A DNA stretch of 64,000 nucleotides. Source: Candidatus Zixiibacteriota bacterium (lineage in GTDB: Bacteria > Zixibacteria > MSB-5A5 > GN15 > FEB-12). Of the stretch, positions 2,007-64,000 are shown piece by piece. Numbering within the stretch: the stretch's first letter is position 1; the number at the start of each line of letters is the position of its first letter. Both the position numbers and the translations under genes were made by a program. The stretch is taken from assembly GCA_024280215.1 (NCBI GenBank), contig JAJRQO010000021.1, forward strand, positions 27,827-91,826, read 5' to 3'. The notes under the pieces are model-generated. The model searched no databases. It saw nothing but the letters and a program-made list of their open reading frames with translations, and was not told the origin of the DNA.

Positions 2007-2197
2007 TAGAAAATTTCTCTCCACCAAAGACTTAATCAAATATTTTCCATCATAAAAGAATATTATGTTTTTATCTAAGTTTTGTAGCCCACTGCTTGGG
2101 GTGGGTTTCTATTCTTATAATGTAGTTATACTTAAAATGAATCGTAAAAGCATCCCAAGGGGTGTGCCACCCAACCGACAGAAAATTCACATTTCTT

Positions 2198-2225
2198 GTA
2201 GGGGCGTTACATGTAACGCCCCTAC
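2198..2225. repeat. Perfect 28-nt palindrome gtaggggcgttacatgtaacgcccctac
   Basis: Read directly; the reverse complement is identical. Belongs to the class of short intergenic hairpin repeats seen elsewhere in the window. Confidence 0.8.
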
Positions 2226-2240
2226 GCAGATTTCTGCATA

Positions 2241-2304: not shown

Positions 2305-5300
2305 TTATGGGCAGTTTGGTGGGTTGGCACCACTTTGGAACATATATGCGACCAAATAAACCAAGTCGGAAATATCAATATCACCAAGACCATCAACATT
2401 CGCTTCAAGCAGACATATCGGAGAAGTCCCATTCTGGAACATGTATGCGACCAAGAACACTAAATCAGCAATATCTATGCTATCATTATTATCCCCATCA
2501 ACATTTCCTCTGAAACCAATACAACATCCCCAGCTTCCTGTATTGAAAACAAACTGCTGTGATGACCATGTTGTATCACCTGCTATATCCGTAGCGAACA
2601 CTTTCCAGTAGTAAACCATATCAGTCGCAAGTGGACTGACTAAAGTAAACGATGAGTCAGTGCCTACTTCAAGAATGGTAGAACTACTAAACAAAGAATC
2701 TATATCATAGACTAAACTATACAAAACCGAATCACCTGGATCGGCATCTGTTGATACGTCCCAAGTAAATATCGGTATTGTTCCAACAGACTCTGCTGAG
2801 TCAGCAGGGAGTTGTAGACCAAATGCGGTTGGAGCTTGGTTTACCTGATTGACAAAAAATGATTCAACTGCAGAGTAATCTGATGATGCTGCACCATCGT
2901 TTACCCGTGACCGCCAGTAAAATTGAGCATCTTCGGTAAGTGGCACATCAACGGTCCATGAGGTCGTGCTGGCACCCTCGGCAACCAATGATGCCGATGT
3001 AACAAGTGATGATAATCCAAAATCATTATATACTTCAAATTCGTATGTCAGTACGTCGCCATTGCCATCGGAACCATTGTTAACCACAAGCGAAGGAGTG
3101 TTCGTATTCACTTGTATATCAGCAACAGGAGAAACTAACGACCCAAAAAGAGGAATTGCATTCATTGTAAATGTCGTCCTTCTCCAACCAGACCAATCGG
3201 TTCCATTGTAAACACGCATGCGAACAAAATAAGAAGCACCATCATCCAAAATCGCTCCAGCGTAGACGATAGAATCAATCGAGCCAGTTAGAATTCCAGA
3301 CTCCCACATATCATTGGCGTTAAAGCAAAGATTACCTGTACCTACCTGCACTTGATACTGAACCTGTGAGGCTCCTGTCGTATCAGAAACAGACCATCCA
3401 AAAATCGGCGTTGCTGAACTAACAGATGATGCAGAAATTTCTGATGGGAAACTAATAGAATCAACATACGGATTGGTCAATTGATTGACGGCACCGTAAT
3501 CGAAGAAAGTCATAATACGAGCAAGCACAGTATCTTGCGTAGCATAGCCTGACGATTCATAACTATTTGATATTCCTTCAAACCCAAAGCTTAACAAGAG
3601 TGATTTATAAGGACCATCATAACTAATCCCTAAGAGACCTCCAACTTGCAACTCAAATTCGGCATTTCCATCACCACCAAAAAGACTCATTGTTTCAGGG
3701 GCAGTTTGATTCGTCCATGAGTCATATCGCACTTTGAGTCCATCACCAATAACTGACCCCGAACTGCCATTTATGAGAGGAAATAATAAATCAGAGGTAT
3801 AGTCTGCTTTGAAATAATTTTGTAAAAAAGAAAGATCATCCACTGAAAGTTCTTCAGCAAGTGATTGTCCCGAAAGCATCATCCTGCCACCATTGTCCAT
3901 GAACCCTTTCATAGCAGTTACATCGGCAGCCGATAAAACATCGGCTCTGTCATCTCCACTTATCCAAATGACAATATTATAATTATCTAAATCAAATGAT
4001 GACGGAGAACCTAAAATAGATTTATCATAAATATCATGAGGAATCCGAAGGTTTCGGAGTGTATTTACTACATGCAAGTCCCATGCGGCACCATTGTCAT
4101 CATCAACAATCAACACTTCAGGAGTGCCTACATGAAGTTCATATCCAAATGTTATAGCACCTAATGGATTATCAGATGTTATATCTAAGAAAAATGAGTC
4201 GATACATGGATCAAATGTTGCTGGTATATCAAAAACGATAGGAATGACAGTATTGTTTCCAGAACCTCCATTGCCCAGCACAGTACCTATATTGACCGTT
4301 GGTGTTGTAAAGACAAAATCTGGATTTCCAGAAGACATAGTCGCTGTAACATTGTTAGCAGTCAGCCATAAATTATTAACTGTAAAGGTAAAAGTTATCG
4401 TCTCACCTAAATCAACAACTGAATTATTGTTACCATAGAGAACATCAGAAAATTCTGAAGTGGTAACGGAAAAACGAGGTGCTGAATATGAAACATCTAA
4501 ATTAGCATACATCAAAGAATCAGATGCCGAAATATCCCATACCAGAATATTGGTTGGGGCTCCAGAGTATTTATTAGAGTTCGGAAGCGAGATATTTGTA
4601 AATTCAGTTTGAGTAGCAGTAGACCAAACATCACCAGCATCTCCACTATTAGCATCATTTTCTAAATCAGATTTACCGTCTGCCTGTTCAATCCCAACAA
4701 GATAACGAGGTTCATTTGAATTACCCCATTGGGTTTCATCTATATGATAAATCAATAACCCTGAACCAGGGATTCCAAAATCATTTCCAGTTTGTTGTCT
4801 ATTTTCAACGATAAAATACTCTTGTCCAACAACGCCATTTTCCCATATACGATAAGCAACAGGGTTATAATAACTTGATGGAATTTCCTGATTGGTAAGA
4901 TTTGACGAGACATTGGTAAGGTTGATAAAGCCGAGTTCTTTTTTACACCATGCATCAAAAAATGCAGGATAACGTCCGCCAGAGTTCCAGCTTCCGCCCG
5001 CCATGAGCGACCATTTGCCAACCCCAGCAGAAGAATAATCGGTATCATACAAATCAGGTAACCCTAAGAAATGTCCATACTCATGAGAAAAAACACCCTG
5101 CGTAATAAGTCCACCCGAGCCTTCTTCTGGTTCGGTTGTATAGCTATTAATACTTATACCATCAAGGTTCATAGTATACGATGTTCCCCAGGCGTGTGAC
5201 CAAATATCAAAATCAGAACCTGTCGCTTCGGCACCTGGCCCAGCATGTACAATAAATACTCCATCGGCTGTACCATTACCATCATTATCAAACTGAGAAA

Positions 5301-11318: not shown

Positions 11319-11457
11319 GTGACAGCCAGCTGGCTCCTACCGGGGAAACTCGCAACACACAGAAAAGAACTATTTACGGCTGCTACCTTCCAGTCCTGAC
11401 CGGGTTCACAGGTATCTGTTGTACAAGACCCAATTATCAATACTGCTCAACTGTCAC
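11319..11457 (-). ncRNA. ffs: Signal recognition particle RNA (small bacterial type)
   Basis: The minus strand reads ...CCCGGTCAGGACTGGAAGGTAGCAGCC..., matching the conserved helix-8 core of 4.5S RNA (GGUCAGG...GGAA tetraloop...AGCAGCC). Termini GTGACAG / CTGTCAC pair as a closing helix, and a terminator follows. Ends are uncertain by about 10 nt. Confidence 0.8.
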
Positions 11458-11530
11458 TATATCTATCTAAATTTCAAAGAACAATCTACACACACCCGAC
11501 CCATCTGTTGTAGGGCTGTCTTTCAAGTCC

Positions 11531-11606
11531 CTTCGACTCCGCTCAGGGTGACTTCAAAGACAACAACTTACTATCTGTCATGCTGAGCGGAGTCGAAGTA
11601 TGTTCA
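11531..11606 (+). repeat. Hairpin repeat, family 1, full copy
   Basis: Inverted arms cttcgactccgctcag (11531-11546) and ctgagcggagtcgaag (11583-11598). Clearly homologous to 36250-36324. The right arm recurs at 41556 and, reversed, at 44135. Confidence 0.85.
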
Positions 11607-12832: not shown

Positions 12833-13084
12833 CTACGGATGAATCATTTTCTGGACTATTGGTGTGAGACCTGAGAAGAAAAACTCAAACAAGACCTGTC
12901 CCGAAAAAGCAAACATGACCAGCGTTAAAAATGCTATAATAACAGCTTTACGGGCAGTTTTATTGCGGGCTTTACTGTCAAGCGACGAGGTCATCGTCAT
13001 AAATACAGGCATCACCCCGAGCGGATTTATCAGGGTAAAAAACGATGTGAAGCAAAGTAGCACAAATGTAAGTGTTTCTGACAT
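12833..13084 (-). pseudogene. MarC-family (UPF0056) membrane protein remnant, N-terminal ~70 residues only
   Basis: 83 aa. LINPLGVMPVFMTMT is the MarC N-terminal signature, but the family is about 200 aa. The ORF ends 10 nt before the next gene, so no room remains for the rest. Confidence 0.5.
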
Positions 13085-13176: not shown

Positions 13177-13279
13177 TTAATAGTTGTGTCGGGTGCTTTC
13201 ATGCTTAGCATGATACACCTGACACGTAATAAATCTGTCAGTTCTCAATTCGCAAGCGAATAAGAAACTGACAGAACTT
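13177..13279 (+). repeat. Two-hairpin structured repeat, copy 1
   Basis: ttaatagttgtgtcgggtgctttcatgcttagcatgatacacctgacacgtaataaatctgtcagttctcaattcgcaagcgaataagaaactgacagaactt. Near-identical to copy 2 at 14356-14457 and homologous to the reversed copy at 62997-63104. Confidence 0.9.
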
Positions 13280-13308: not shown

Positions 13309-14295
13309 TTATATCAAATCAGGCAAATATTTTAAGAACAATTCAAGAGTTTCATCCTTTAATGTGGTATGAATAGGAATATGTAATTTCTTACTTAATG
13401 CAATCTCTCTTTGTTTATAAGCATCAGTCATATTAGTTCCCATAGTAATTACAATTCCACTATCAATTTTTTCATGACTATTATAAGCTAATTCAATCTG
13501 ATCTAATGGGTCAAAAGCAGAAATTTCGTCAAACCACATTTTCACCTGAATCGCATTTCTATGCAATACACCAAGAGCATCATTTGAGTTACTTATGAAA
13601 TCAGCACCTTTTTCTTTTGGACCAGCGTGTTTTTCTACTTTATCATGACCATACAACATTTTTAGGACTTCAAAAATTGGAGCTTCAAATTCAGTGGCAT
13701 TATATTTATCTTTAAGTTCTTTTTCTAAGTGTAACTTAGACAGTTTTTTTATCTCAAATAATTTCTCTTGAATAGGAGTTGGTTGCGATAAATCTTCATT
13801 TCGTTTTAAAGTATTTACAATTTTATCAATATCGGACTTATAACCTCTGATATTCCAAAGCCGCATTGGTGTTTTCATAGTTCCACGTAAGAATGCAGAT
13901 ACATCTATATTGTGAGGATGTATAAATGAATCACCTGTAAGCAACTTAACTTCTAAGACATGTCCATAATCACCAGATTTATGATTACGTTTGAAACTAT
14001 ATCCTCCAGTAACTTCGGCGATTAACCACTTACCGTAATCAGGTAAATTTGGAGTAATTATAATATCTCCCACTTGAATACTGTCTAATTCATTAGGGTG
14101 CATTTTTCTATTCCCACGCCAACAAGCAATTTGGTCAGCATTTAAAAATTTCCCTGATTTATTACAACTCCGAATAGTATTCAAATCTTGGCTAACGTCA
14201 TATCCCCACCCTTGCCTTAATCGACCTTCTTTTAATTCAGAATAGAAATAATCCCTATTTTCAGAATCTGTTCTAAATGCCCAATAGTTGCCCAT
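13309..14295 (-). CDS. Mrr-type PD-(D/E)xK restriction endonuclease-like protein with an N-terminal PUA/EVE-like domain (COG4127-like architecture)
   Basis: 328 aa. C-terminal half: FEAPIFEVLKMLYG...KGADFISN...AIQVKMW fits the Mrr_cat pattern (FE..., G-D, Q-x-K). N-terminal half: YWAFRT...GRLRQGWGY...VGDIIITP...WLIAEVTG resembles PUA-like reader domains fused to such nucleases. The gene is visibly AT-richer than dnaX. Confidence 0.7.
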   Translation of the reverse strand: MGNYWAFRTDSENRDYFYSELKEGRLRQGWGYDVSQDLNTIRSCNKSGKFLNADQIACWRGNRKMHPNELDSIQVGDIIITPNLPDYGKWLIAEVTGGYSFKRNHKSGDYGHVLEVKLLTGDSFIHPHNIDVSAFLRGTMKTPMRLWNIRGYKSDIDKIVNTLKRNEDLSQPTPIQEKLFEIKKLSKLHLEKELKDKYNATEFEAPIFEVLKMLYGHDKVEKHAGPKEKGADFISNSNDALGVLHRNAIQVKMWFDEISAFDPLDQIELAYNSHEKIDSGIVITMGTNMTDAYKQREIALSKKLHIPIHTTLKDETLELFLKYLPDLI

Positions 14296-14355: not shown

Positions 14356-14457
14356 TTAATAGTTGTGTCGGGTGCTTTCATGCTTGCATGATACACCTGA
14401 CACTTAATAAATCAGTCAGTTCTCAATTCGCAAGCGAATAAGGAACTGACTGAACTT
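14356..14457 (+). repeat. Two-hairpin structured repeat, copy 2
   Basis: Direct repeat of copy 1. It differs by one indel in the hairpin-A loop and a compensatory pair in hairpin B (ctgtcag/ctgacag becomes cagtcag/ctgactg). Lies 73 nt upstream of the dnaX start. Confidence 0.9.
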
Positions 14458-40659: not shown

Positions 40660-40820
40660 AATTTCAATCTCATATTTTCTTTATTCAGCGGTGAATATAG
40701 TCAAATCTTCTCAAATGGCAAGTTGAATAATCATCATTATCTTTTTTTCTTCTTCTACTTATAACCATTTATTGCTCAAAATGTTGCAGAAAATCGGGAT
40801 TTTATCGTACACGTTAGGTT

Positions 40821-40854
40821 GGGTCCTGATTTCGCTTCAGCGAAATTGTGACCC
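40821..40854. repeat. Nested hairpin GGGTC-ctg-ATTTCGC-ttca-GCGAAAT-tgt-GACCC
   Basis: Read directly. Lies just downstream of the NUDIX gene stop. No U-tract on either strand. Confidence 0.5.
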
Positions 40855-40862
40855 GACCATCA

Positions 40863-61353: not shown

Positions 61354-62340
61354 ATGAAAGTCGGAATTAATGGTTTTGGTCGAATTGGAAGACTCGTTTT
61401 AAGAGCCGCAAAAAACACAGACATCGAAATTGTTGGTATCAATGATTTAACAGATGCAAAAACTCTTGCCTATCTTTTGAAATATGATTCTGTCCACGGA
61501 AAATTCCCTGGTGATGTGTCAGTAGACGGCAACAACATCGTTGTCGACGGCAAAAAAATTCCTATCACAGCAGAAAAAGACCCAGCAAATCTTAAATGGG
61601 GTGCACTTGGTGTTGACATTGTTATGGAATGTACTGGTTTCTTCCGTACCAAAGAATCCGCATCTGCACATATCAAAGCGGGTGCCAAAAAAGTTATCAT
61701 CTCTGCCCCAGCAAAAGACCATGATGGTACTTTTATTCCTGGTATAAACTGTAGCAACTACGATAAAACTAAACATGATGTTATCTCTATCGGTTCCTGC
61801 ACCACTAACTGTTTAGCACCTGTAGCTAAAGTCCTGATGGATAACTGGGGAATTGAAAAAGGTTTCATGACTACTATTCATGCCTATACATCTGACCAAC
61901 GTCTGCTCGATGCACCGCATTCAGATTTACGTCGGGCTCGTTCGGCTGCACTCTCTATGATTCCTACAACAACTGGTGCTGCCAAAGCTATCGCCGAAGT
62001 TATTCCTGCCTTAAAAGGTAAAATGGATGGTTGTGCGATTCGTGTTCCTACCCCAGATGGTTCTATTGTTGATTTAGCTATTATCCTTGAAAAAGAAGCA
62101 ACTGTTGATGAAATCAACGCTGCTGTCAAAGCTGCTGCAACAACTGGTTCGCTCTCCAATACATTAGAGTATTGTGATGATCCTATTGTCTCTATTGACA
62201 TTGTTGGTAATACACATGGTTCGATATTTGATTCAGGCATGACAGCAACACAGGGAACATTTGTAAAAGTCTTTATGTGGTATGACAATGAATACGGTTT
62301 CTCCAATCGAATGATTGACATGGCCCTCATGATGCTGTAA
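61354..62340 (+). CDS. gap: Type I glyceraldehyde-3-phosphate dehydrogenase
   Basis: 328 aa. INGFGRIGR and the active site SCTTNCLAP. Confidence 0.95.
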   Translation: MKVGINGFGRIGRLVLRAAKNTDIEIVGINDLTDAKTLAYLLKYDSVHGKFPGDVSVDGNNIVVDGKKIPITAEKDPANLKWGALGVDIVMECTGFFRTKESASAHIKAGAKKVIISAPAKDHDGTFIPGINCSNYDKTKHDVISIGSCTTNCLAPVAKVLMDNWGIEKGFMTTIHAYTSDQRLLDAPHSDLRRARSAALSMIPTTTGAAKAIAEVIPALKGKMDGCAIRVPTPDGSIVDLAIILEKEATVDEINAAVKAAATTGSLSNTLEYCDDPIVSIDIVGNTHGSIFDSGMTATQGTFVKVFMWYDNEYGFSNRMIDMALMML

Positions 62341-62373
62341 GCGAATGTATCGTATATAACTTCTAAACTTTGT

Positions 62374-62402
62374 AAGGCGGAACCCTTTAGTAGTTCCGCC
62401 TT
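62374..62402 (+). terminator. Hairpin terminator after gap
   Basis: 10-bp stem aaggcggaac / gttccgcctt. The U-tract is imperfect (aatatttg). Confidence 0.6.
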
Positions 62403-62422
62403 AATATTTGAAAACAAAAACA

Positions 62423-62941
62423 TTAATTAGTTTTCCTATAATACTGCCCATGATCACCATCAACAATTATTGAAAATACATCCCCTTCATAATAAATAGA
62501 ATAGTAACAATCTGAGGGCTTTGAACTAAGGTCTTCTCCTAACCATTCTAATAGTTTGGCACTATCTCCATTACTTGTATGTAAGTTGTATACTACTGAT
62601 TCTGACCATTCTGGAGAGCGTCTTGAAAAACTATTCAATTGAATATGATAATCTCCAATAGCAACTGTACCTAGTTTCCATTTTCCTTTATCAACAACAA
62701 CAGAGTCAGTATAGTGATATATTCTTTCCCAAGAAAAATCTGATTTAATTACTAATAATTCTTGATCTTTATGTGTGGGCGTATATGTACCTGTAACATT
62801 ATTCAAATCAATTGGCTTAGAAATCCAATAATCAACACAACCAAAACAAAATAAGATTATAAGTACATTAACAAAATAAAGTAAATATAGTCTTGAATTC
62901 AATATTTTCTCCTCACTTTTGAATATGTTAATACTTAACAT
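62423..62941 (-). CDS. Orphan lipoprotein, unknown function
   Basis: The track ORF runs to 63049, but its first 36 codons read through the structured repeat. The internal Met at 62941 gives MLSINIF...LIILFCFGCVD, a signal peptide with a lipobox. The gene is AT-rich and antisense to the flanking gap and pgk. Confidence 0.6.
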   Translation of the reverse strand: MLSINIFKSEEKILNSRLYLLYFVNVLIILFCFGCVDYWISKPIDLNNVTGTYTPTHKDQELLVIKSDFSWERIYHYTDSVVVDKGKWKLGTVAIGDYHIQLNSFSRRSPEWSESVVYNLHTSNGDSAKLLEWLGEDLSSKPSDCYYSIYYEGDVFSIIVDGDHGQYYRKTN

Positions 62942-62996
62942 ATTTTCTATAAATTTACAACCCTTAAATCTTACATATTGACTTTCCGCATTGCAT

Positions 62997-63104
62997 GTTC
63001 TGTCAGTTCCTGATTTTGATTCATCAAAATTGTGAACTGACAGAGTCACTATATGTCAGGTGTATCATGCTAAAGCATGAAAGCACCCGACACAACTATT
63101 TAAT
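62997..63104 (-). repeat. Two-hairpin structured repeat, copy 3 (reverse orientation)
   Basis: The reverse complement is ttaaatagttgtgtcgggtgctttcatgctttagcatgatacacctgaca...ctgtcagttcacaattttgatgaatcaaaatcaggaactgacagaac. Hairpin A is nearly identical to copies 1 and 2. The hairpin B outer stem is conserved, and its interior is replaced by a different palindrome. Confidence 0.85.
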
Positions 63105-63210
63105 ACTACCAATATCCTTACAAATCATATATTGACTTTCAATATAATATTTGCCTTATTGAATGGCTGATAATTATAGTTGTTTATATACAGATTTAAG
63201 GAACTAAAAT

Positions 63211-64000
63211 ATGAATAAAGTTACTGTTGATAATATCAATTTTCGGTCTCGAAAAGTTCTCGTAAGGGTCGACTTTAATGTCCCACTCGACGACAACCAA
63301 AAGATAACCGATGACCGTCGAATCAAATCTGCTCTCCCGACTATTAAAAAAATCATCTCCGATGGTGGGATTGTCATTGCTGTCTCGCATCTTGGCAGAC
63401 CAAAGGGGAAACATGTTACCGAACTCTCTCTTCGTCCATGTGCAGTACGACTCGCGGAACTGCTCGGACAAAAAGTACATTTCGCCGACGACTGTATCGG
63501 ACCGGAAGCATCAAACCACATTGACAATCTTAATGACGGCGAAATTATTCTACTTGAGAATCTTCGGTTCCATAAAGAAGAAACCGACAACGATTCCGAG
63601 TTCGCACAAAAGCTCGCATCACTCGCTGATATTTTTGTCAACGATGCCTTTGGAACTGCTCATAGAGCTCACGCCTCGACAGAGGGTGTCACCAAGTTTT
63701 TCAACCAATCAGTTGCGGGTTATTTGATTCAGAAAGAACTCGAATTTATCGGCACCGCCCTTGCCTCTCCTCGTCGTCCCTTTGCAGCAATTTTGGGTGG
63801 AGCAAAAATCTCTGGCAAAATCGACGTCATCGAAAACTTACTCGACAAAGTCGACATGCTTTTCATCGGCGGTGGCATGGTCTTTACCTTTGCCAAAGCA
63901 ATGGGATACTCAATCGGCAACTCACTTCTTGAAGCAGACAAAGTTGAGTTCGCAAAAGAACTTATTGAAAAAATACAAAAATCAGATGTTAAACTTTTCT
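63211..64000 (+). CDS. pgk: Phosphoglycerate kinase, N-terminal ~263 codons; continues beyond the window end
   Basis: Absent from the ORF track because no stop lies in the window. Manual translation from ATG 63211 gives [28 protein letters not shown]...SHLGRPKG...[17 protein letters not shown]...[11 protein letters not shown]. The four track ORFs in 63196-63941 are off-frame or antisense artefacts. Confidence 0.92.

What the first reader, a model, noticed from the sequence alone, without database searches (positions are those of the whole stretch)
62423..63104. Third copy of the two-hairpin element accompanies an antisense orphan gene that splits gap from pgk
gap (61354-62340, plus) and pgk (63211 onward, plus) are normally adjacent and co-transcribed. 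Here they are separated by an AT-rich minus-strand lipoprotein gene and a reversed copy of the 13177/14356 repeat. My hand count gave about 30% G+C in one line of the insert, against about 50% in one gap line. In copy 3, hairpin A is almost identical to the other copies. Hairpin B keeps the outer stem CTGTCAGTTC/GAACTGACAG, but its interior is a different palindrome (ATTTTGA-tgaa-TCAAAAT instead of ATTCGC-aa-GCGAAT). So the structure is preserved while the sequence is replaced. In two of three copies the element lies 56-73 nt upstream of, and co-oriented with, the next gene (dnaX and this lipoprotein). The annotated 208-aa ORF is inflated because it reads through the repeat. This is independent support that the element marks insertion points of accessory genes inside conserved operons.
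Basis: partly seen in the sequence, partly recalled or inferred. Interest (0 to 1): 0.6.

Follow-up and report, generated by a model that had tools for sequence, protein, structure and literature searches.

The report
REP doublet left by a RAYT transposase
The two-hairpin repeat between gap and pgk is one copy of a small palindromic repeat family (a REP doublet, like the BIME/REPIN elements of E. coli and Pseudomonas) whose own transposase gene occupies this same spot in a sister Zixibacteria genome, so it is an ordinary kind of bacterial repeat seen in a new phylum, not a new RNA or gene-insertion signal.

Summary
A ~105-nt element with two hairpins occurs three times in the window: 13177-13279 (+), 14356-14457 (+) and 62997-63104 (-). 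The third copy lies between an AT-rich minus-strand ORFan and the pgk promoter.

The element is best read as a REP doublet of the BIME/REPIN type.
- It consists of two 38-45-nt imperfect stem-loops in inverse orientation.
- The outer arms are invariant and GTT "feet" sit on both outer sides.
- A stem mismatch is conserved, and the inner stems covary.

In a sister population (GAPDH 88% identical) the same gap-pgk spacer reads pgk | doublet | solo hairpin A | 161-aa RAYT | doublet | gap. That RAYT passes the NCBIfam REP_Tyr_transpos model, and its best solved relative is E. coli TnpA-REP (4ER8). Window copy 3 is the positional ortholog of the doublet upstream of that RAYT. In the window an ORFan sits where the RAYT sits there.

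gap and pgk are 23 bp apart in a distant Zixibacteria genome, so the split is real, but it predates this ORFan. The spacer is a hypervariable hot spot with different cargo in each relative, and so is marC-dnaX. Empty marC-dnaX sites, and other cargo at that site, carry no element. This is a new member of a known kind.

The parts
62997..63104 (-). REP doublet, copy 3. It has a 5' GTT foot, hairpin A (63093-63053), a linker, hairpin B (63043-63000) and a 3' AAC foot. It is the positional ortholog of the doublet upstream of the RAYT gene in L133 and of the decayed copy in L120.
   Evidence: (117.8 bits).
13177..13279 (+). REP doublet, copy 1. It lies 3' of the Mrr-like gene and converges on it. 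It sits between the marC remnant and the Mrr-like gene.
   Evidence: 131 bits. One search shows it is 95% identical to copy 2 over 103 nt, with the repeat confined to the element.
14356..14457 (+). REP doublet, copy 2. It lies between the 5' end of the Mrr-like gene and dnaX, and ends 71 nt before the dnaX ATG. It carries a compensatory T-A to A-T change in the outer stem of hairpin B.
   Evidence: 127 bits.
40817..40858 (-). Diverged solo hairpin of the B type (GGTCGGGTC aca ATTTCGC tga AGCGAAAT cag GACCCAACC). It lies just after the stop codon of a 159-aa ORF (not searched against Pfam).
   Evidence: (24.4 bits, E 2e-4). The interior closely matches hairpin B, while the outer stem differs.
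62423..62902 (-). ORFan of 159 aa counted from TTG 62902, which has a GAGGAG ribosome-binding site. It has a hydrophobic N-terminus with a weak lipobox-like FGC. It is held as 208 aa from GTG 63049 in the protein collection. It occupies the position where the RAYT gene lies in the sister genome.
   Evidence: no Pfam hit; only a self hit; no nucleotide similarity elsewhere; GC3 0.16.
62372..62404 (+). Hairpin after gap (GTAAGGCGGAACCCTTTAGTAGTTCCGCC). It resembles a second REP family (GTAGGGCAGAACC..GGTTCTGCC) that flanks the other RAYT type in L123.
   Evidence: A direct sequence match was found only to L108 4379-4411; the link to the L123 family is by inspection.
63130..63210 (+). pgk promoter and leader region, conserved in relatives whatever the cargo. 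It contains TTGACTTTCAATATAATATTTGCCTTATT.
   Evidence: (91% identity to L120, 83% to L123).
13309..14295 (-). Accessory gene of 328 aa with an Mrr-type restriction endonuclease domain. It is bracketed by doublet copies 1 and 2 in direct orientation.
   Evidence: PF04471, 23.8 bits against a cut-off of 21; weak PADLOC PDC-S02 hits; the same gene plus doublet next to marC in L091.
61354..62340 (+). gap (type I GAPDH).
63211..64000 (+). pgk, cut off by the end of the window.
   Evidence: and (PGK in the orthologous loci).

Best explanation
The element is a REP doublet of the BIME/REPIN kind. It consists of two 38-45-nt imperfect palindromes, hairpin A and hairpin B, with B being an inverted relative of A. 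It is the cognate repeat of a REP-associated tyrosine transposase (RAYT, an HUH/Y1 enzyme).

Inferred mechanism, by analogy with E. coli TnpA-REP. When the DNA is single-stranded, each hairpin folds. The RAYT then recognises the invariant outer stem, the conserved stem mismatch and the conserved GTT at the hairpin foot. It cuts and rejoins next to the hairpin. This copies or moves doublets into extragenic DNA and makes their borders breakpoints for rearrangement.

Copy 3 in the window is the surviving upstream flank of a RAYT locus that settled between gap and pgk in an ancestor of this subclade. The RAYT, the solo hairpin and the second doublet have since been replaced by an AT-rich ORFan. 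Copies 1 and 2 bracket an Mrr-type accessory gene in a second hot spot, marC-dnaX.

Shown here: the repeat family, its fold and covariation, its mirror symmetry, its position on both sides of a RAYT gene in a sister genome, and the positional orthology of copy 3.

Inferred: that this RAYT acts on these hairpins, and that the element has moved.
For: 1. RAYT association. In L128/L133 (GAPDH 88% identical to the window) the gap-pgk spacer reads:
- the pgk promoter;
- a doublet at L133 2848-2968 (69.5 bits);
- a solo hairpin A at about 2985-3027;
- a 161-aa ORF at 3068-3553;
- a doublet at 3586-3708 (110 bits);
- other repeats, then gap.
All these parts are co-oriented.

2. Identity of that ORF. 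It has the HUH motif (HIH) and the Tyr motif (YIHKNPV). It scores 95.9 bits on NCBIfam NF047646 'REP-associated tyrosine transposase' (cut-off 80) and fails the IS200 model (20 against 55). Its only PDB match is 4ER8, TnpA-REP, at E 8e-11.

3. Positional orthology. The pgk leader, promoter and doublet align between the window, L133 and L120. Similarity ends at the doublet's 3' end.

4. REP anatomy.
- The stem-loops are 38-45 nt long.
- The outer stems are invariant: 8 of the 10 hairpin-A pairs never vary.
- A G.T mismatch is kept in hairpin A in 8 of 9 copies.
- It is mirrored as A.C in hairpin B in 3 of 9 copies (L002, L108, L128). The reverse complement of B therefore has the same TGTCGG...CTGACA asymmetry as A.
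- The outer heads are GTTGTGTCGG and, on the other strand, GTTCTGTCGG.
- The reverse strand of every doublet also matches the model, at 45-61 bits.

5. Structure is selected. 95.3% of cells are paired, and 6 pairs have changes on both sides (0 of 500 shuffles reach this). All slid registers fall to 26-40% paired. The interior palindromes are replaced wholesale but always pair.

6. Location. All 11 copies or part-copies are extragenic. Solo and decayed hairpins exist (window 40817-40858, L120 9900-10022, L133 2985-3027), as expected for REP families.

7. Definitions taken from the literature. BIMEs are two REPs in inverse orientation with a linker. REPs are 35-40-nt stem-loops with stem mismatches and a conserved 5' tetranucleotide. 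RAYTs are flanked by BIMEs (PMC3479197). REPIN spacers vary but keep the hairpin (PMC3337134).
Against: - No RAYT gene lies in the 64-kb window (tblastn). The rest of this genome could not be scanned, so a cognate enzyme in this organism is not shown.
- Copy number is unknown and looks low. There are 3 doublets and 1 solo hairpin in 64 kb, but none in about 47 kb of the relatives' marC-dnaX loci. Only 2 hits each came from two MAGs, in a genome scan that was cut short. The JGI metagenome and IMG/VR scans gave none. Classical REPs number in the hundreds.
- The conserved foot is GTT, not GTAG.
- Six of nine copies, including the three in the window, have lost the mirrored mismatch in hairpin B. 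Their inverse orientation is therefore inferred from relatives.
- No clean insertion or excision polymorphism of a lone doublet was found, so mobility is not demonstrated.
- Two unrelated RAYT types (27% identical) have occupied the same spacer. The doublet in L120 abuts a remnant of the other type. This turnover is more like an insertion sequence than the textbook single-locus RAYT.
Confidence: 0.75

Rival explanations
1. The doublets are the ends of a cargo-carrying mobile unit (doublet-cargo-doublet), or serve as a cassette exchange site. A Y1/HUH enzyme cuts at the same point in two co-oriented doublets and moves or swaps whatever lies between or beside them. This would explain why accessory genes sit next to the element.
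For: - The doublet-X-doublet architecture in direct orientation is seen three times: Mrr in the window, the RAYT in L133, and the 642-aa ORFan in L120.
- Similarity between relatives ends exactly at GACAGAAC, with different cargo beyond it.
- At the orthologous groEL-proximal locus, L002 and L108 carry different genes to the right of the doublet.
- The neighbours of all copies are accessory: an Mrr-like gene, DUF3800, a protein with an RHS-like YYGARYYD motif, surface-protein paralogs and ORFans.
Against: - The Mrr module is at the same marC site in the only other genome that has it (L091), so no movement is seen.
- Empty sites have no resident doublet, and other cargos at both hot spots lack doublets.
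- Gene orientation relative to the doublet is inconsistent.
- No target duplication or conserved target sequence was found at the junctions.
- No integrase or transposase is nearby in the window.
Confidence: 0.12
2. The unit in L133 is an ordinary autonomous IS200/IS605-type insertion sequence. The lone doublets are then its miniature derivatives (PATE/MITE-like), rather than a domesticated RAYT/REP system.
For: - The protein hits Pfam Y1_Tnp.
- Hairpin-bearing ends flank the gene.
- RAYT genes turn over at this locus, and a truncated remnant exists in L120.
- The repeat copy number looks low.
Against: - The NCBIfam IS200 equivalog fails (20 bits against a cut-off of 55) while the RAYT equivalog passes.
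- The best solved relative is TnpA-REP, not an IS608- or ISDra2-type TnpA.
- Both ends are the same full doublet rather than distinct left and right ends.
- The gene sits at a syntenic chromosomal position in two independent assemblies.
Confidence: 0.08
3. The element is a structured RNA: a 5' leader or riboswitch-like regulator of the downstream gene, or a small RNA gene.
For: - The fold is strong and the inner stems covary.
- The G.U pair in hairpin A is tolerated in RNA.
- Three copies lie upstream of and co-oriented with a gene: dnaX, the ORFan, and the L003 378-aa ORF with an RHS-like motif.
Against: - Four copies at three independent positions instead lie tail to tail with the 3' end of the neighbouring gene.
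- The genes downstream are unrelated to each other.
- In three copies hairpin B has an A.C mismatch on the strand where hairpin A has G.U. In those copies neither strand gives all-standard pairs.
- The dnaX leader is conserved in relatives without the element.
- There is no Rfam match, even at E up to 1.
- Consensus promoter-like matches are no more frequent than in shuffled sequence.
Confidence: 0.03
4. Its main role is as a bidirectional transcription terminator or insulator that separates acquired genes from gap, pgk and dnaX.
For: - It has stable GC-containing hairpins on both strands.
- It lies between convergent or divergent genes.
- REPs are reported to be important in mRNA turnover and Integration Host Factor recruitment, and the GI doublets of P. 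fluorescens may have been co-opted for transcription attenuation (PMC3479197, PMC3337134).
Against: - No T-run follows either hairpin on either strand, and the terminator scan finds none in either region.
- gap has its own separate hairpin at 62372-62404.
- This role would not explain the invariant outer-stem sequence, the conserved mismatch or the RAYT linkage. At most it is a side effect.
Confidence: 0.02

Closest known systems
E. coli BIMEs (paired REP/iREP) and their RAYT, TnpA-REP (PDB 4ER8; PMC3479197)
   Same: - Two stem-loops of about 40 nt in inverse orientation, joined by a short linker.
- Mismatched bases in the stems.
- A short conserved sequence at the hairpin foot.
- Extragenic location.
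- The transposase gene is flanked on both sides by the doublets.
- The enzyme has HUH and Tyr motifs and is the best PDB match.
   Different: - The foot is GTT rather than GTAG.
- The stems have a different sequence (TGTCGG...CTGACA).
- Each hairpin carries an extra inner stem that covaries or is swapped.
- The copy number appears far lower.
- The host is a Zixibacteria lineage. No paper in the searched library mentions both Zixibacteria and repetitive extragenic sequences.
- The RAYT is missing from the window.
REPINs of Pseudomonas fluorescens and their RAYTs (PMC3116915, PMC3337134, PMC5581495)
   Same: [quoted passage not shown]
- A variable internal part that always keeps a hairpin.
- Solo REPs that look like decaying remnants.
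- A RAYT flanked by the doublets.
   Different: - A classical REPIN folds mainly as one long hairpin, with REP pairing to REP. Here each REP folds on its own. The end-to-end pairing appears only as an alternative fold in L108.
- Two different RAYT types have occupied the same spacer in related genomes.
IS200/IS605 insertion sequences and their palindrome-associated miniature derivatives
   Same: A Y1 HUH enzyme, subterminal imperfect hairpins, and action on single-stranded DNA.
   Different: - The protein fails the IS200 equivalog model.
- Both flanks carry the same full doublet instead of distinct left and right ends.
- No multi-copy transposase was seen.
Integron attC sites and gene cassettes
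   Same: Folded imperfect palindromes at the borders of variable, promoter-poor accessory genes, with array-like alternation of element and gene in L120.
   Different: - There is no integrase.
- There are no R''/R' core sites (RYYYAAC/GTTRRRY).
- There are two hairpins rather than one.
- Gene orientation is inconsistent.
- Empty sites lack the element.

Membership tests
REP (repetitive extragenic palindrome) | A stem-loop of about 35-40 nt with mismatched bases in the stem (PMC3479197). | tested here: met
   Hairpin A is 38-41 nt and hairpin B 36-47 nt. The G.T mismatch in A is kept in 8 of 9 copies, and each hairpin has an internal loop.
REP (repetitive extragenic palindrome) | Located in extragenic DNA. 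| tested here: met
   All window copies and all copies in L002, L003, L091, L108, L120, L128 and L133 lie between ORFs. The 208-aa ORF overlaps copy 3 only because its start was called too far upstream.
REP (repetitive extragenic palindrome) | High copy number dispersed through the genome. | tested here: inconclusive
   The 64-kb window has 3 doublets and 1 solo hairpin. Relatives have 2-3 in the gap-pgk spacer. There are none in about 47 kb of the marC-dnaX loci. No whole genome could be scanned.
REP (repetitive extragenic palindrome) | A conserved short sequence 5' to the hairpin foot (GTAG in E. coli). | tested here: inconclusive
   An invariant GTT precedes hairpin A in the first seven copies, and an invariant AAC (GTT on the other strand) follows hairpin B. 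The position is analogous, but the sequence is not GTAG.
BIME / REPIN (REP doublet) | [quoted passage not shown] | tested here: met
   In L002, L108 and L128a the mismatch in B is the mirror image of the one in A, and the outer heads are GTTGTGTCGG and GTTCTGTCGG. The reverse strand of each doublet matches the doublet model at 45-61 bits. In the window copies B is fully paired at that position, so its orientation rests on homology.
BIME / REPIN (REP doublet) | The variable internal part keeps a hairpin (PMC3337134). | tested here: met
   At least six different interior palindromes were found in hairpin B, and all of them pair. Two interior types occur in hairpin A, with compensatory changes.
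BIME / REPIN (REP doublet) | Flanks a RAYT gene. | tested here: met
   Met in L133/L128: doublets lie upstream of the RAYT start (with the solo hairpin between) and 32 nt after the RAYT stop. Not met in the window itself, which has no RAYT in 64 kb.
BIME / REPIN (REP doublet) | Mobility of the doublet (excision or insertion events). | not testable with these tools
   Only large presence/absence differences tied up with cargo changes were seen. No clean polymorphism of a lone doublet was found.
RAYT (REP-associated tyrosine transposase) | A protein of about 150-190 aa with HUH and catalytic Tyr motifs that passes the family model. | tested here: met
   The L128/L133 protein is 161 aa, with HIH and YIHKNPV. 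NF047646 scores 95.9 bits (cut-off 80). The best PDB match is 4ER8, E 8e-11.
RAYT (REP-associated tyrosine transposase) | A single, syntenic locus per genome. | tested here: inconclusive
   The gene has the same gap-pgk position in two assemblies. However, a second RAYT type sits in the same spacer in L123 and as a remnant in L120. Whole genomes were not scanned.
IS200/IS605 insertion sequence | The transposase passes the IS200 family model. | tested here: not met
   NF033573 scores 20 bits against a cut-off of 55.
Integron attC | R''/R' core sites and an adjacent IntI integrase. | tested here: not met
   The ends read GTTGTGT / ACAGAAC, which do not fit GTTRRRY / RYYYAAC (direct reading). No recombinase domain appears in the gene calls and Pfam marks of the related loci. 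The window's own ORFs were not screened for integrases.
Known RNA family (Rfam 15) | A match to any covariance model. | tested here: not met
   There is no match at gathering thresholds across the window apart from SRP RNA, and none at E up to 1 on 62900-63220.

The most novel reading that the evidence does not exclude
The doublets are not just passengers. Together with a RAYT they would form a gene-swapping device. The enzyme would cut at the fixed 3' foot (GACAGAAC) of co-oriented doublets. Any DNA next to or between doublets (an Mrr nuclease, ORFans, the RAYT itself) could then be excised, replaced or captured. That would create integron-like hot spots inside core operons such as gap-pgk and upstream of dnaX.
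Probability: 0.12. Interest if true: 0.75.

Novelty: new member of a known kind. Interest (0 to 1): 0.35.

Why it matters
- It removes a tempting false lead. The element is not a new riboswitch-like RNA or a new insertion signal.
- It points to an apparently undescribed REP/RAYT system in Zixibacteria, a phylum known almost only from metagenomes. No paper in the searched library mentions Zixibacteria together with repetitive extragenic sequences.
- It corrects an over-long gene call.
- It shows two small hot spots of genome plasticity, gap-pgk and marC-dnaX. There, RAYTs, several palindromic repeat families and orphan or defence-type genes replace one another between close relatives.
- The sharp breakpoints at the doublet foot give a concrete, testable hint that RAYT/REP systems can shape accessory gene turnover.

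Tried and rejected
- **Genome-collection scan** with the hairpin-A pattern.
- **Metagenome and IMG/VR scans** with a stricter two-hairpin pattern. The two metagenome hits were heptamer noise and IMG/VR gave none.
- **Exact look-ups of the window's own proteins**, to recover the source contig. They were not on record, so the rest of this genome could not be scanned for a RAYT or for more copies.
- **Rfam**, at gathering and permissive thresholds: nothing.
- **Terminator and promoter scans**: no terminator-like site, and promoter-like matches at the background level.
- **attC reading:** the core sites do not fit.
- **LexA-box reading of CTGT...ACAG / GAAC...GTTC:** the spacing is wrong, so it was dropped on inspection.
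- **Target-site duplication or a fixed target next to the doublets:** none is visible in nine junction pairs.
- **Remnant of either RAYT type in the window spacer:** none by tblastn.
- **A possible collapsed solo hairpin A** at window 62921-62945. The idea comes from the alignment, but the evidence is too weak to claim it.
- **Structure prediction, fold search and the representative-protein search** were not used. The sequence models already classified the transposase, and the ORFan has no relatives from which to build an alignment.
Full report
**1. The observation**

The region was read directly together with the two earlier copies.
- A 25-nt core occurs exactly three times in the window, at 13181 (+), 14360 (+) and 63098 (-). 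None is expected by chance. A gapped hairpin-A pattern gives the same three sites.
- The copies align over about 105 nt.
- Hairpin A is GTGTCGGGTG-ctt-TCATGC-loop-GCATGA-ta-CACCTGACAC.
- Hairpin B is CTGTCAGTTC-interior palindrome-GAACTGACAG.
- All copies fold into the two hairpins as RNA (z about -7.5) and as single-stranded DNA on either strand.
- The insert is AT-rich. The ORFan is 30% G+C with GC3 of 16%. gap is 41%, and the window overall is 36%.
- The 208-aa ORF from GTG 63049 reads through hairpin B. TTG 62902 with a GAGGAG site, or ATG 62941, is the more likely start. The 208-aa form is the one held in the protein collection, from NCBI.

**2. Host and relatives**

GAPDH and DnaX place the window in Zixibacteria. 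True homologs of the element were found in two other Zixibacteria MAGs: L002 and L003 (JAJRSF01), and L091 and L108 (CALCCW01).

The other hits of that scan were unrelated palindromes built from GGTGTCR heptamers. Scans of JGI metagenomes and IMG/VR gave no true copy.

A covariance model built from seven copies found no further full copy in the window. It did find a diverged solo hairpin of the B type at 40817-40858.

**3. Structure and symmetry**

On nine full copies, 95.3% of cells pair, and six pairs show changes on both sides (0 of 500 shuffles reach this). Slid registers drop to 26-40% paired.

The variation is all in the inner stems. The outer stems are invariant in sequence, which points to sequence-specific recognition as well as folding.

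Hairpin A keeps a G.T mismatch in 8 of 9 copies. In L002, L108 and L128a hairpin B carries the mirror-image A.C mismatch. The reverse complement of B then reads GTTCTGTCGG...CTGACAG, against GTTGTGTCGG...CTGACAC for A.

The reverse strand of each doublet also matches the doublet model at 45-61 bits. A conserved GTT sits outside each hairpin foot. The element is therefore two related imperfect palindromes in inverse orientation.

**4. Synteny at gap-pgk**

| Locus | GAPDH identity to window | Content between gap and pgk |
|---|---|---|
| L131 (CP070674) | 77% | 23-bp spacer; gap-pgk-tpi-secG |
| L120 | 95% | 101-aa ORF, a full doublet, a 642-aa ORFan, a decayed doublet |
| L121 | 91% | a 92-aa ORF that begins with a duplicated gap N-terminus; no doublet |
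| L123 | 84% | a 134-aa ORF and a RAYT flanked by GTAGGGCAGAACC-type REPs; no doublet |
| L130 | 88% | a 133-aa ORF, then the contig ends |
| L128 / L133 | 88% | two doublets and a solo hairpin A around a RAYT (details below) |

L131 shows the ancestral state. Closer relatives all have an expanded and different spacer.

The L128/L133 spacer, reconstructed from two assemblies, reads in order:
- pgk and its promoter;
- a doublet (69.5 bits);
- a solo hairpin A;
- a 161-aa gene;
- a doublet (110 bits);
- other repeats, a hairpin followed by a T-run, then gap.

The 161-aa protein has HIH and YIHKNPV. It passes the NCBIfam equivalog for REP-associated tyrosine transposase (95.9 bits, cut-off 80) and fails the IS200 model. 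It matches only E. coli TnpA-REP (4ER8) among solved structures.

**5. Positional orthology of copy 3**

The pgk-proximal side was aligned between the window, L133 and L120.
- The pgk leader and promoter region are conserved. BLAST gives 91% identity to L120 and 83% to L123.
- The doublet follows at the same place and in the same orientation in all three.
- Similarity stops at its 3' end, GACAGAAC.
- Beyond that point lie the ORFan (window), the solo hairpin plus RAYT (L133), or the 642-aa ORFan (L120).

The window's ORFan has no protein relative other than itself and no nucleotide similarity to any fetched locus.

Copy 3 is therefore an old resident of this spot, namely the upstream flank of a RAYT locus, and the gene beside it has been exchanged. 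In L120 the full doublet abuts a 26-codon remnant of the other (L123-type) RAYT. This shows repeated turnover.

**6. The other two copies**

Copies 1 and 2 are 95% identical over 103 nt, and the repeat is confined to the element. They bracket a 328-aa gene with an Mrr-type nuclease domain. This module lies between a marC remnant and dnaX.

| Locus | State of the marC-dnaX site |
|---|---|
| L091 | the same marC-doublet-Mrr junction; the Mrr gene is cut by an IS3-type element |
| L125 | marC and dnaX 157 bp apart; other small repeats, no doublet |
| L126 | marC and dnaX 221 bp apart; other small repeats, no doublet |
| L127 (same assembly as L120) | a different three-gene cargo; no doublet |

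marC-dnaX is thus a second hot spot. The doublet is neither a resident attachment site there nor a requirement for insertion.

**7. Explanation and rivals**

These features match the published definitions:
- REPs are 35-40-nt stem-loops with stem mismatches and a conserved 5' tetranucleotide.
- BIMEs are two REPs in inverse orientation with a linker.
- RAYTs are flanked by BIMEs (PMC3479197).
- REPIN internal parts vary but keep a hairpin, and solo REPs are decaying remnants (PMC3337134).
- Some RAYT groups go with only modest repeat numbers (PMC5581495).

I therefore read the element as a REP doublet cognate to the L128-type RAYT. The hairpins would fold in single-stranded DNA, and the enzyme would recognise the outer stem, the mismatch and the GTT foot. 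That this enzyme acts on these hairpins, and that the doublets have moved, is inference.

- **RNA leader.** This is disfavoured. The orientation to neighbouring genes is mixed and the downstream genes are unrelated. In three copies the mismatches leave neither strand fully paired. The dnaX leader is conserved without the element. Rfam finds nothing.
- **Terminator.** This lacks T-runs and would not explain the invariant stems.
- **attC-type site.** This fails on core sequence and on the empty-site test.
- **Ordinary IS200-type insertion sequence.** This is weakened by the family models.
- **Cargo swapping by the RAYT.** Doublet-cargo-doublet modules and the sharp breakpoints at the doublet foot could reflect RAYT-driven cargo swapping. 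This reading is not excluded. It is kept as the novel case.

**8. Verdict**

The element itself is a member of a known class (REP/BIME/REPIN with a RAYT) in a phylum where none seems to have been described.

The limits are these:
- No whole genome could be scanned.
- Copy number is unknown.
- No RAYT lies in the window.
- Mobility is not shown.

Noticed in passing
L001, L005-L117 (most loci), e.g. L037 765-813, L072 4297-4400: Many Planctomycetota, Gemmatimonadota, Acidobacteriota and Pyrinomonadaceae MAGs carry intergenic palindromes built from tandem GGTGTCR heptamers (for example GGTGTCAGGTGTCGGGTGTCAG...CTGACACCCGACACCTGACACC). Several occur per genome. They swamped the pattern scan. Their arm sequence overlaps the outer stem of hairpin A only because the search pattern required it.
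   Followed up: no
window 12833-13084 (-): marC is an 83-aa in-frame remnant: the N-terminal ~66 residues are joined to the last ~17. It is 211 aa in L091, L125, L126 and L127. The deletion end points share an EFF motif.
   Followed up: partly
L123 7600-8097 (-); L120 7420-7497 (-); window 62372-62404: A second RAYT type (165 aa, 27% identical to the L128 type, NF047646 119.5 bits) sits in the same gap-pgk spacer in L123. It is flanked by GTAGGGCAGAACC..GGTTCTGCC REPs. A 26-codon remnant of it abuts the doublet in L120. The hairpin after gap in the window resembles this REP family by inspection; its one direct sequence match is L108 4379-4411. The L123 REP itself matches L120 and L130.
   Followed up: partly
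window 11519-11585; L120 7761-7825; L123 8160-8270; L126 6836-6870; L091 6961-7021: Another intergenic repeat family (TTTCAAGTCCCTTCGAC...CTCAGGGTGACTTGAAA...CTGTCATGCTG...GTCGAAGTATG) is scattered through the same hot spots. One copy lies next to the SRP RNA gene in the window.
   Followed up: partly
window 2197-2226 and 2245-2271; L108 4559-4585: A further pair of REP-like hairpins lies between two ORFs: TGTAGGGGCGTTACATGTAACGCCCCTACG and AAGTCGGAACCACAGGGGTTCCGACCT. The second recurs directly upstream of the doublet in L108.
   Followed up: partly
L108 6161-6243; L002 4108-4130: A different two-hairpin unit (CAGTCAGGAAtccTTTCCTGACTG plus CGTCGGGAAaggGTTCCCGACG) lies between the DUF3800 gene and groEL in L108. 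Its first hairpin also sits just 5' of the doublet in L002. The palindromic repeats of these genomes cluster together.
   Followed up: no
L121 1278-1556: The 92-aa ORF between gap and pgk begins with an exact-looking duplicate of the gap start (MKVGINGFGRIG) and then diverges. This is a trace of a local duplication or recombination.
   Followed up: no
L091 2524-3716: An IS3-family element (two overlapping transposase ORFs) has cut off the 5' end of the Mrr-like gene in the CALCCW01 MAG.
   Followed up: no
L127 4008-6665: The closest relative carries a three-gene cargo between marC and dnaX in place of the Mrr module: a SoxA/TsdA-like cytochrome c, a metallophosphoesterase and a CCP_MauG peroxidase. 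In that assembly dnaX is called as 407 aa, and ybaB-recR is called as one fused 314-aa product.
   Followed up: no
window 11335-11435 (-): Bacterial small SRP RNA (Rfam RF00169, 67 bits). It is the only Rfam match in the window.
   Followed up: no
L131 7802-8299: In the complete genome CP070674, where gap-pgk-tpi-secG is intact, a third RAYT type (165 aa) lies downstream of secG. Inverted GGTACCCCACCGCTTGCGGTGGGATC-type sequences lie on both sides of it, and an unannotated, tRNA-like stretch precedes it.
   Followed up: no
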